NCBI GenBank assembly: GCA_951406725.2
Contig: OX597826.1
Span: forward strand, 38,192,001 to 38,256,000
DNA: 64,000 nt
DNA from: Octopus vulgaris
Taxonomy: Eukaryota
Direction of reading: 5' to 3'
This document shows positions 32,109 to 47,717 of this stretch, one piece after another (the stretch's first letter is position 1; each line of letters begins with the position of its first letter). The translations under genes and the position numbers were made by a program. Below the pieces are notes generated by a model. It saw nothing but the letters and a program-made list of their open reading frames with translations, made no database searches and was not told the origin of the DNA.

Positions 32109-33135
32109 CGTGAAGACGCGTGGCTTAGTAGTTAGAGTACTCGGCTAACGATCTTAAATCCGTGAGTTCGATTCCTTGCATCGTATTGTGCCCTTAAACA
32201 TTTTACTTCACCTTACTTCAGTCCACTCAGCGGGAAAAAATTAACTGTACCTGTATTTGAAAGCGCCATCCTTGATTTTTTTTTTTTAGTTTGTTTGTTT
32301 GTTTCAAGTTTAATGAAAATCTTAAAATTTGGTGTATTGTTGTCATTTTCCAAAGGGTTAATCTAAGAGGTTAATCTAAGGGTTTAATTCACTTTTTCCC
32401 AAAACAATTTTTTTAATAGTTACAGAGATTTGAAATTTGATACTTTTAACACAGTTAGGAAATAGGATTTGGAAGCTGTCATTTTATGCGTGACTGTCAC
32501 GTGTTGTCAACTAGAAACAAATGAAATATTTTGCTTTACGCACGCCATATCTTTTTTTTGTTTTTTTATATTTGGAATTTTCATAAAATTTTTACGAGTT
32601 TGTATTCTACACACAGGAATTCATACGATTATGCAAAAATCATAAGCAAAATTTGGTGCGTAATTTAAGGCCTATTTAGCTATTATTCTTAGCCCATCTC
32701 ACGACCACCTCATACCTCATGTGTTTTAAGCATTTAATAAACGAAAATGACCACGTAGGTAAACAGCTTGGTAAATCGGCACTTATGTGTCTGCGGTTTC
32801 TATTGGCTAAAATTATTCAAAGTTTGCAAACTTTAAAACCTATTAATCCTATTTATTAGTTTATGGTGAAAATTAATTTCATGTCAATGATTACCATACA
32901 AAACTACATCAATACACCAAGTATGAAATCAATTGGAACAAAGACTGAAGAAACTGAAAAAGTCCCCAGCCTTGTCATATTCGGTGTATCACGCTGAATC
33001 GCCCCGAGAACTATGTTAAGGGTACGCGTGTCTGTAGAGAGCTCAGCCACTTGCACGTTAGTTTCACGAGCAGGCTGTTCTGTTGATTGGATCAACTGGA
33101 TTACTCGTCGTTGTCACCGACGGAATGTCAGTTTT
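32109..33135 (+). mobile_element. SINE family C copy interrupted by a MITE
   Basis: A/B boxes TGGCTTAGTAG / GAGTTCGATTCC. Body resumes after the TSD at 32966. Confidence 0.75.
32274..32965. mobile_element. Older MITE with 8-9-bp TSD (Merlin- or Mutator-like) interrupting a SINE
   Basis: TSD CCATCCTTG / CCAGCCTTG. Degenerate TIRs GA(C/T)TTTTT..AGTTT and subterminal TTGGTGTATTG / CAATACACCAA. Confidence 0.65.
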
Positions 33136-33235
33136 TTCTATGTAAAAAACGAAAAGTATCCAACAGTAATGGAATGACTATATCGTGATTTCTGTGTCTT
33201 TGTACGTCATCAGCTGCAAGTATCCACTATCAACC

Positions 33236-33358
33236 GAAGAAGAAGAAGAAGAAGAAGAAGAAGAAGAAGAAGAAGAAGAAGAAGAAGAAGAAGAAGAAGA
33301 AGAAGAAGAAGGAGGAGGAGGAGGAGAAGAAGAAGAAGAAGAAGAAGAAGAAGAAGAA
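33236..33358. repeat. (GAA)n/(GGA)n triplet repeat
   Basis: Direct inspection. Confidence 0.98.
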
Positions 33359-33360
33359 TA

Positions 33361-33727
33361 CAGTAGTGGCATGGCAATAGCAGGATGTTGATGGAATCCA
33401 CTTAAATAGTCAAGTGACCTGAAAGTGACTCGTTGTGGATGATAGTAGTGATTGAAATCGTTCTGAATAAATTATTGTTTTGAATCTATCATTTTTAATA
33501 TTTGCGTGGGTGTTATTCTAAGGGCCTGGTGACAGTGTCATTTGTTGTGGATGCATTCAAAAAAGGTTGGTAATTTGTGATAAAGAATGACTCTTTACTA
33601 ATCAGTCGCCTCAAGAATTTAATCAGAACGATTTCAATCACTACTATCATCCACAACGAGTCACTTTTAGGTCACTTGACCATTTAAGTGGATTCCATCA
33701 GCATCCTGCAACTGCCATACCACTACT
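33361..33727. repeat. Inverted repeat with about 112-bp arms and about 140-bp spacer
   Basis: 33361-33473 is the reverse complement of 33616-33727 with a few mismatches. Confidence 0.9.
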
Positions 33728-39301: not shown

Positions 39302-39826
39302 TTTCTAAGATATAGACACAACGTCGTAATTTCTATGACAGTCATAACGTCACAATTGCTTAGCAAAACTCCACAGTTGCTAAGATATAAGCACAATGTC
39401 ACAGTTTCTATGATATGGGTACACCATCACGGCCTCTAAGATATAGACACAACGTCGTAATTTCTATGACAGTCATAACGTCACAATTGCTTAGCAAAAC
39501 GCCACAATTGCTAAGATATAAGCACAATGTCACAGTTTCTATGATATGGGTACACCATCACGGCCTCTAAGATATAGACACAACGTCGTAATTTCTATGA
39601 CAGTCATAACGTCACAATTGCTTAGCAAAACACCACAGTTGCTAAGACATAAGCGCAATGTCACAGTTTCTATGATATGGGTACACCATCACGGCCTCTA
39701 AGATATAGGCACAATGTCACAATTTCTATGACATGGGAACACTGTCACGGTTTCTAAGATATAGGCAGAATGTCACAGTTTCTGAAATATAGGCACAACG
39801 TCAGAATGTCACAACGTCACAACGTC
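39302..39826. repeat. Higher-order minisatellite: 131-bp unit x3 plus a degenerate tail, built from ~27-28-bp subunits
   Basis: TATAGACACAACGTCG at 39311, 39442 and 39573. Subunit consensus about TTTCTAAGATATAGGCACAATGTCACAG. Confidence 0.9.
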
Positions 39827-45253: not shown

Positions 45254-45570
45254 GGGTATATGGCGTAGTGGTTAAGAGCGCGGCCTACCAACCCCAAGAT
45301 TCCGAGTTCGATTCCAAGCAGTGACCTGAATAATATTAATAATAATAATAATAATAATAATAGTATTATAATAATAATAATAATAATAACAACAACAACA
45401 TCGAAAAATACCTTAGGAATGAGAATCCAGGTTCGAAATTTCCCCAAGGCACCTGATGAAGGCTGGAAGGTATATCAGCTGAAACGTTGTGTTAACAACA
45501 AACAAGAGAGAACAAATATCCGTCAAATGTATATAATGTAAAAAATTCCTCATCTTTTAAATATAGAACT
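45254..45570 (+). mobile_element. tRNA-headed SINE-like element with (AAT)n linker and HHR-containing 3' module
   Basis: A box TGGCGTAGTGG (45261-45271), B box GAGTTCGATTC (45304-45314), HHR at 45448-45493. The 3' module recurs, rearranged, at 12560-12675. Confidence 0.7.
45448..45493 (+). ncRNA. Minimal type I hammerhead motif
   Basis: ggcac CTGATGA a GGCTG-gaaggtatat-CAGCT GAAA cg TT gtgtt. Confidence 0.7.
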
Positions 45571-46945: not shown

Positions 46946-47299
46946 TGTGAAATAGAAAGATGAATAATCTTGTAGTAGATTAATCAAAAGTTTAACCGAT
47001 ACCTTAGTAGCAAAAATCACAGCAGTAAAACAGCACGGTTGGAGGTACAACCATATGGTGTTGCAACCGTGCGTTGGTGCGGATAATTGAGGCTCCTCCT
47101 TCTTCTTCTTCTTCTTCTTCTTCTTCTTCTTCTTCTTCATCATCATCGTTATCATCATCATCGTCGTCATAATCATCACCACCATCACCATCATCGTCAT
47201 CTTCTCCTTCTCCTCCTTCTTCTTCTTCTTCTTCTCCACCCCCTACCCCTTAAGTTTGTCACTAATGTTTTTTAGTATAACACCTACGCTAATTCTATA

Positions 47300-47675
47300 A
47301 ACAAGCCTGTCAATATAAATATTCTCCTGAATTGAACTGAGACTGCCAGCCGCCACTGACCATTCAAAATACGACCATCAGGGCACTCCCAGATTCTCCC
47401 ACCCCCCTTTCCTCACCAGCCTTCCCTCTACTACCCTACCAAGAACTCACAACTACCTCGAACACACAAGTGCAAACAAGGGAGTCAGAGAAAGGCAGAA
47501 TGCCACTTAAATCTGAACACTACTATAGAAATATTCTTTTAAAAAAACTTTTCTTCTAATTTTTCTAAATTTAATTATTTAATCGTTACAGTTGAAAAGG
47601 TCTCAAAATGACCGAAACCGGTACTGAAATGTTCACTATAAAATTATTTTAGCATTTTCTATTTTTTACTTGTTT

Positions 47676-47680
<5 letters not shown>
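47300..47680 (+). mobile_element. PLE 3' fragment with a U3:A8 hammerhead at 47586-47629
   Basis: A YKYSPELN* terminus resembles PLE IxxxKPxLN ends. ttacag TTGAAAA GGTC-tcaaaat-GACC GAAA CCGG TA ctgaaa. Ends in (TA)n. Confidence 0.6.

Positions 47681-47717
<37 letters not shown>

What the first reader, a model, noticed from the sequence alone, without database searches (positions are those of the whole stretch)
47586..47629. Hammerhead with a UUGAAAA core: U3:A8 covariation of the C3:G8 tertiary pair
Seen: stems I and II pair, stem III is the palindromic GAAA-CCGG-UA, but the core is UUGAAAA instead of CUGAUGA. Known: positions 3 and 8 form a tertiary Watson-Crick pair in the active hammerhead, and U3:A8 is a recognised natural compensatory variant. 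Inference: this is not decay but a functional variant that standard CUGANGA descriptor searches would miss. It sits at the 3' end of a PLE-like fragment.
Basis: partly seen in the sequence, partly recalled or inferred. Interest (0 to 1): 0.75.

Follow-up and report, generated by a model that had tools for sequence, protein, structure and literature searches.

The report
Variant hammerhead of a young Penelope
This is one of thousands of copies of a likely self-cutting RNA at the end of a young jumping gene; its unusual core letters are the family norm, not decay, and were already described in other animals, but cutting itself is untested here.

Summary
Observation confirmed. 47586-47629 is a type I, dimer-type hammerhead with a U3:A8 core, in the terminal repeat (pLTR) of a young Neptune-type Penelope-like retroelement (4.4-kb unit, RT plus GIY-YIG, (TA)n targets). 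U3:A8 is the family norm: 1789 of 1861 exact copies carry UUGAAAA; only 5 differ at position 3 and 5 at position 8. Older subfamilies keep it while stem II pair 10.1:11.1 moves from A-U through G•U to G-C. The variant is published: Cervera and De la Peña 2014 report about 1300 U3-A8 PLE hammerheads in Schistosoma, one with this same UUGAAAA core. Less ordinary points: (1) position 17 is A, so U3 is predicted to pair with it (P 0.71-0.84), like the inhibitory C3-G17 trap; (2) 5' ends of truncated copies rise from 0.6 to 2.7 per base at the predicted cut, a possible trace of cleavage in vivo, though RT stalling in stem I fits too; (3) nearly all copies read through the site. Cleavage was not assayed. 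The scan's notes hold other hammerheads in this genome but not this sequence. New member of a known kind.

The parts
47093..47687 (+). 5'-truncated insertion of a young Neptune-type Penelope-like element: only the 3' UTR / pLTR end (low-complexity CTT/CAT tract, C-rich tract, hammerhead, T-rich end), no ORF, no tail, no inverted partner in the window
   Evidence: blastn to genomic copies and full elements; copies 100% identical over 47480-47680; descriptor scan of both strands
47586..47591 (+). Stem I, 5' strand (predicted extension to 47584)
   Evidence: sequence; folds; pair counts
47592..47598 (+). Core UUGAAAA: U3 = 47592, A8 = 47597
   Evidence: 1789 of 1861 copies; exceptions listed
47599..47613 (+). 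Stem II GGUC/GACC with 7-nt loop; pair 10.1:11.1 is A-U, G•U or G-C and the loop 5-7 nt across subfamilies
47614..47622 (+). G12-A15.1 and the palindrome ACCGGU, predicted to form stem III between two hammerheads
   Evidence: dimer fold -27.1 vs monomer -9.8 kcal/mol; intermolecular 15.1:16.1 P 0.92
47623..47624 (+). Predicted cleavage site after GUA (A17 = 47623); A17 can also pair with U3
   Evidence: hammerhead numbering; P(U3-A17) 0.71 monomer, 0.84 dimer; step in 5' ends of copies
47624..47631 (+). Stem I, 3' strand with predicted extension
47680..47715 (.). (TA)n target into which the element end merges
   Evidence: copies examined end in (TA)n

Best explanation
This is the terminal-repeat hammerhead of a young Neptune-type Penelope-like retroelement, whose U3:A8 core is the family norm and likely forms a weak, dimer-dependent self-cleaving ribozyme that would cut only a minority of element transcripts. 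Shown: location, copy number, fixation of U3:A8, stem II covariation, tandem arrays with hammerheads 4.4 kb apart. Inferred: read-through transcripts of tandem elements bring two hammerheads together; ACCGGU pairs between them to form stem III; U3:A8 replaces the C3:G8 tertiary pair; cutting after GUA falls about 125 nt upstream of ORF1. Predicted: U3 also pairs with A17, which would keep much RNA inactive, so the reverse transcriptase mostly copies uncut (or religated) RNA. The window copy itself is a passive 600-bp 3' fragment.
For: Fixation: 1861 exact copies of the stem II-to-stem I 28-mer, 1789 with TTGAAAA; non-U at 3 in 5 copies, non-A at 8 in 5. Older subfamilies keep U3:A8. Pair 10.1:11.1 on 23 distinct rows: A-U 12, G-C 7, G-U 3, other 1; cells changed on both sides 9, reached by 0 of 500 shuffles; A-U sits on the long-branch old copies and G-C on the young ones, a move to the pair the literature calls highly conserved (PMC4209133). 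Element: RT E 2.7e-8, GIY-YIG E 3.8e-4; tandem units of 4.38-4.43 kb. Dimer fold restores stem III. 5' ends of truncated young copies: 18 events in the 30 nt before the cut, 27 in 47622-47631, 28 in 47635-47655; p 7e-7 against upstream, 0.007 against downstream. One copy (L054), nested among U3:A8 sisters, has both C3 and G8. Natural U3:A8 hammerheads, with the pair earlier shown active in vitro: PMC3088659 (passage).
Against: No cleavage was measured. The excess of 5' ends is a plateau over 47622-47631, which is also the 3' strand of the predicted extended stem I, so RT stalling explains it about as well; the two control searches used different anchors and cover only the first 100 of 140 and first 50 of 63 matches. 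It amounts to a few dozen events against about 1800 copies that span the site. None of the first 30 of 31 matches examined runs on from the cut into ORF1, so no unit-length copy with a ribozyme-made 5' end was seen. Related copies inflate the shuffle test, and the covariation rests on one pair. The GIY-YIG score is under Pfam's cut-off (21.1 vs 22.6). In the anole PLE, hammerhead mutants did not affect insertion in vitro and no RNA-seq reads ended at the cut (PMC11167929). The C3:G8 copy is a single case.
Confidence: 0.7

Rival explanations
1. The motif is a hammerhead-derived structure that no longer cuts appreciably (held by U3-A17 pairing) and is kept for another role, such as protein binding, dimerisation or template positioning.
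For: P(U3-A17) 0.71-0.84; the analogous G17 change lowers minimal hammerheads at least 300-fold (PMC3884650); nearly all copies read through the site; PMC4209133 says functions other than cleavage cannot be ruled out.
Against: All catalytic positions and the 3:8 pair are kept across subfamilies; stem II moved to G10.1-C11.1; the rise in 5' ends starts at the cut, with no truncation starting at 47618-47621. U-A is weaker than C-G, and tertiary-stabilised G17 variants still cleave.
Confidence: 0.2
2. The ribozyme is efficient, and transcripts are cut and religated into circles that are reverse transcribed through the restored junction, which gives intact hammerheads and tandem arrays.
For: Seamless head-to-tail arrays of three or more units (L214-L216); model proposed in PMC4209133; a step in 5' ends at the cut.
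Against: Read-through transcripts of tandem sources give the same products; PLE minimal hammerheads are slow in vitro; the U3-A17 pair predicts low activity; no data on circles here.
Confidence: 0.08
3. The core is a decayed CUGANGA that hitch-hiked with an amplifying master copy.
For: Young copies are nearly identical, so their number alone reflects few sources.
Against: U3:A8 persists through old, intermediate and young subfamilies whose flanks differ by roughly 10-25% while stem II changes on both sides; the same core occurs in a Schistosoma PLE.
Confidence: 0.02

Closest known systems
U3-A8 minimal hammerheads of Schistosoma mansoni PLEs (families Sm3, Sm4; Cervera and De la Peña 2014, PMC4209133; main text parts 1-3 of 4 and supplement parts 1-2 of 3 read)
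   Same: U3-A8 core in a PLE pLTR, about 1300 hits; Sm4 in a Cercyon element has the same UUGAAAA core; dimer-type stem III; inverted pairs of motifs.
   Different: In Fig. S3 the two U3-A8 examples have G17 and U17, an extra base before stem II and no extra palindromic stem III bases. Here N17 is A (can pair with U3), stem II is 4 bp without the extra base, stem III is a 6-nt palindrome, the host element is Neptune-type, and the motif is nearly invariant in young copies.
Natural U3:A8 core variants (Perreault et al. 2011, PMC3088659; passages read)
   Same: Same compensatory replacement of the C3-G8 pair.
   Different: The passages read do not tie those examples to a high-copy Penelope family.
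PLE hammerheads with a small palindromic helix III (Drosophila, mosquito, shrimp; PMC4209133; Lünse et al. seen only as cited in PMC6765202)
   Same: Type I, palindromic stem III, predicted to cleave as dimers in tandem transcripts.
   Different: Those listed have C3:G8 cores.
PAc (Poseidon of Anolis) hammerhead (Frangieh et al. 2024, PMC11167929; parts 1-2 of 4 read)
   Same: pLTR hammerhead near the ORF start; tail on some ends; uncut RNA as the main template.
   Different: C3:G8 core, Poseidon clade, single ORF; shown to be protein-assisted, which is untested here.
Neptune/Nematis EN+ PLEs (Craig et al. 2021, PMC8557442 and preprint; passages read, figures not seen)
   Same: RT then GIY-YIG, CX2-5CxxC linker, pLTRs, inverted 5'-truncated partner, tail on one end, microsatellite targets.
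   Different: Here a 414-aa ORF1 overlaps the RT-EN frame by a -1 shift; the Fig. 1 legend says ORF1 can be separated by a frameshift in some PLE types, and I could not see which.

Membership tests
Type I hammerhead ribozyme | Core U4 G5 A6 N7 A9, G12 A13 A14, A15.1-U16.1, H17 | tested here: met
   Rfam HH9 alignment
Type I hammerhead ribozyme | Watson-Crick pair between positions 3 and 8 | tested here: met
   U3:A8 in 1789 of 1861 copies; one C3:G8 copy. The strict C3/G8 consensus is not met.
Type I hammerhead ribozyme | Stems I and II with covariation | tested here: met
   stem II pair 10.1:11.1 A-U/G-U/G-C; stem I shows no informative covariation
Type I hammerhead ribozyme | Stem I / loop II tertiary contact | not tested
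   no model or test made
Type I hammerhead ribozyme | Site-specific self-cleavage after H17 | not testable with these tools
   only the indirect step in 5' ends
PLE pLTR dimer-type hammerhead | Lies in the pLTR at both ends of a full element | tested here: met
   L031, L214-L216, L218, L219, L223
PLE pLTR dimer-type hammerhead | Stem III unstable in the monomer, palindromic, formed in the dimer | tested here: met
   P(15.1-16.1) 0.0 in monomer, 0.92 between molecules; prediction only
Neptune-type EN+ PLE | RT followed by C-terminal GIY-YIG | tested here: met
   Pfam RVT_1 above cut-off, GIY-YIG just below
Neptune-type EN+ PLE | CX2-5CxxC linker between RT and EN | tested here: met
   CX4CxxC before the GIY-YIG; shared with Nematis
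Neptune-type EN+ PLE | Tandem/inverted insertions, 30-40-bp tail on one end, microsatellite targets | tested here: met
Neptune-type EN+ PLE | Single ORF (as stated for canonical EN+ PLEs) | tested here: not met
   ORF1 and RT-EN lie in different frames with the same overlap in 15 of 15 copies
Neptune-type EN+ PLE | RT phylogeny places it in Neptune rather than Nematis | not tested
   no reference set held; hence 'Neptune-type', not membership
Non-LTR retrozyme | Short non-coding tandem monomer | tested here: not met
   the unit is 4.4 kb and coding

The most novel reading that the evidence does not exclude
U3:A8 with A17 is a built-in switch: U3 alternates between A17 (off, stem I extended over the cut) and A8 (on), so the element keeps most template RNA uncut and cleaves only when dimerised or helped by its protein; the step in 5' ends at 47622-47624 is then a genomic record of cleavage in vivo.
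Probability: 0.3. Interest if true: 0.55.

Novelty: new member of a known kind. Interest (0 to 1): 0.3.

Why it matters
What PLE hammerheads do in vivo is still open. This family is young, has many open RT-EN frames, an age series of ribozyme states, natural single variants and one natural C3:G8 copy, and a possible cleavage trace in its own insertions, so it is a convenient test system. It also shows that a family of over 3000 copies can be missed by Rfam thresholds and CUGANGA descriptors. The core variant itself is not new.

Tried and rejected
Isolated double mutant: rejected. C3:G8 as the ancestral state of the young subfamilies: rejected; L054 nests among U3:A8 sisters and older copies are U3:A8. 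Polarity against sister families was not established: 28 CUGANGA-GGUC matches were mostly unrelated to the element (only L054 of 12 examined), and the endonuclease search returned only this family. Expression: no RNA holder listed on record; runs guessed to be RNA hold the stretch as contigs, which cannot show ends; whether other species labels share U3:A8 stays open. ORF1: no Pfam family, no usable atlas hit. Retrozyme reading rejected. Rows dropped before the truncation count: 51 of 100 and 20 of 50 matches were indels or point changes, not truncations; paired arms of one insertion were counted once. Papers not held and so not read: Lünse et al. (PMC5785218), Przybilski and Hammann 2007 (PMC1986816), Nelson and Uhlenbeck 2008 (PMC2271363), Hammann et al. 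2012; these may already hold U3:A8 rates or U3/A17 data. Searches for U3-A8 data and for an octopus PLE hammerhead found no description of this family; most subscription journals are outside the library.

Full report
Observation. The window at 47586-47629 holds all parts of a type I hammerhead with the core UUGAAAA: stem I UUACAG/CUGAAA (5 of 6 pairs), stem II GGUC/GACC, GAAA, the palindrome ACCGGU and A17. Rfam misses it at gathering thresholds and scores it 19.7 bits against HH9, E 0.036. As a lone sequence it is weak: folding z -1.22, and a relaxed descriptor hits in 7 of 60 shuffled windows.

The family. A search of the own genome (2.8 Gb) returned 42 matches from the best 40 of 695 candidates, essentially all identical over 201 bases. 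The 28-mer from stem II to stem I occurs 1861 times, 1789 times directly after TTGAAAA; the other 72 were not listed one by one. With the flanks fixed, position 3 is not U in 5 copies and position 8 is not A in 5, one copy being in both sets. So U3:A8 is the family norm. A looser search gave 1757 further matches, most of the first 100 listed being older subfamilies that still read UUGAAAA (read by eye; 30 fetched).

The element. The window copy spans 47093-47687 and ends in (TA)n. Full copies are units of about 4.4 kb with the hammerhead in both pLTRs. [quoted passage not shown] Inverted 5'-truncated partners, a tail of about 30 bases on one arm and tandem arrays match that paper's description. 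A 414-aa ORF1 begins about 125 nt after the predicted cut and overlaps the RT frame by a -1 shift in 15 of 15 copies. I did not place the RT on a tree, so 'Neptune-type' is a description.

Signs of selection. A tree of 65 distinct pLTR segments forms a ladder: long-branch old copies have A10.1-U11.1 with a 5-nt loop, intermediates G•U or G-C with 5-6 nt, young copies G-C with 7 nt. On 23 distinct rows that pair is A-U 12, G-C 7, G-U 3, other 1. The rows are related and chosen from fetched loci, and some G-U could be CpG decay, so this is one compensatory path, not many events. G10.1-C11.1 is called highly conserved in PMC4209133. One copy, L054, has C3 and G8 and nests among U3:A8 sisters; it is a probable reversion, and a single case.

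Mechanism. Stem III does not form in the monomer (P 0.0) but does between two molecules (P 0.92; dimer -27.1 against monomer -9.8 kcal/mol), the dimer route described for PLE hammerheads. Tandem units supply partners on one transcript (inferred). Because N17 is A, U3 is predicted to pair with it and extend stem I (P 0.71 monomer, 0.84 dimer; 0.0 with C3:G8 or with C17 or U17). This mirrors the C3-G17 trap proposed for minimal hammerheads, where G17 lowers the rate at least 300-fold, though tertiary-stabilised G17 forms still cleave (PMC3884650). The two U3-A8 examples in the 56-row Fig. S3 of PMC4209133 have G17 and U17. I therefore expect weak cleavage.

A possible trace in vivo. A note of this scan on another family (e1-8662772) suggested testing whether copies begin at the cut. 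Among young copies on contigs C1 to part of C17 (first 100 of 140 matches; first 50 of 63), 49 and 30 arms were true truncations. Counting paired arms once: 18 events in 47592-47621, 27 in 47622-47631 and 28 in 47635-47655, or 0.6, 2.7 and 1.3 per base; p 7e-7 and 0.007. No arm starts at 47618-47621; 10 start at 47622-47624. Against this reading, the plateau also matches the 3' strand of the extended stem I, where RT could stall; the anchors differ; and none of the first 30 of 31 matches examined runs on from the cut into ORF1. Nearly all copies span an intact hammerhead, so most templates were uncut or religated, as found in vitro for the anole element, whose hammerhead is protein-assisted and dispensable for insertion (PMC11167929).

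Known or new. U3:A8 in nature was reported in 2011 (PMC3088659) and in PLE pLTRs in 2014, with about 1300 hits in Schistosoma and a dedicated descriptor; Sm4 has the same UUGAAAA. I found no description of this family, but four key papers were not held and part 3 of the 2014 supplement was not read. The scan's notes have no entry for this sequence; one of them (e1-8663039) calls the host a cephalopod, which I did not check.

Verdict. Real, well supported as a conserved PLE hammerhead, not decay; activity likely but untested; new member of a known kind. Interest 0.3, mainly for the predicted U3-A17 brake, the age series and the step in 5' ends.

Noticed in passing
L214:7937-9178 (-) and L214:5646-7997 (-); overlap near L031:3590-3600: Full elements have a 414-aa ORF1 and a 784-codon RT-EN frame overlapping in the -1 frame at a U UUU UUA heptamer, the same in 15 of 15 copies. 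A programmed frameshift is likely; the run also ends in AG, so a splice acceptor is possible. No stimulatory structure was tested.
   Followed up: partly
L031:6658-6661 (hammerhead A6-A9), run X8: Six contigs of a run guessed to be RNA read G at all four core adenosines and then resume the reference (table 7). This looks like A-to-I hyper-editing of inverted-repeat transcripts and would destroy the core; no matched DNA run, and a different organism label from the best DNA holder.
   Followed up: no
L054 / L221 (G000:C13:524780-524809): Single copy with canonical C3:G8 inside a U3:A8 subfamily; 2 of its 5 differences from its nearest sister in 380 nt are this pair. From the single-change counts about 0.006 such copies are expected (my arithmetic; higher if limited to older copies).
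   Followed up: yes
window 45447-45494 (+): A second, canonical CUGAUGA minimal hammerhead with an extra base before stem II, of PLE type.
   Followed up: no
window 33100-33720 (-): 3' end of a related PLE (endonuclease C-terminus 64% over 25 aa) with an inverted piece and a degenerate CUGAUGA motif at 33213-33207.
   Followed up: partly
L214-L216, L224: Head-to-tail arrays of three or more full units on contig C9; an array of short inverted old-subfamily pairs on C1 near 73.28-73.30 Mb.
   Followed up: partly
runs X1-X19: The pLTR stretch is held at 75-100% of words under four organism labels, so the family is shared among related species or moved recently.
   Followed up: no
window 39304-39803: Tandem array with 131-nt and 28-nt periods.
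   Followed up: no
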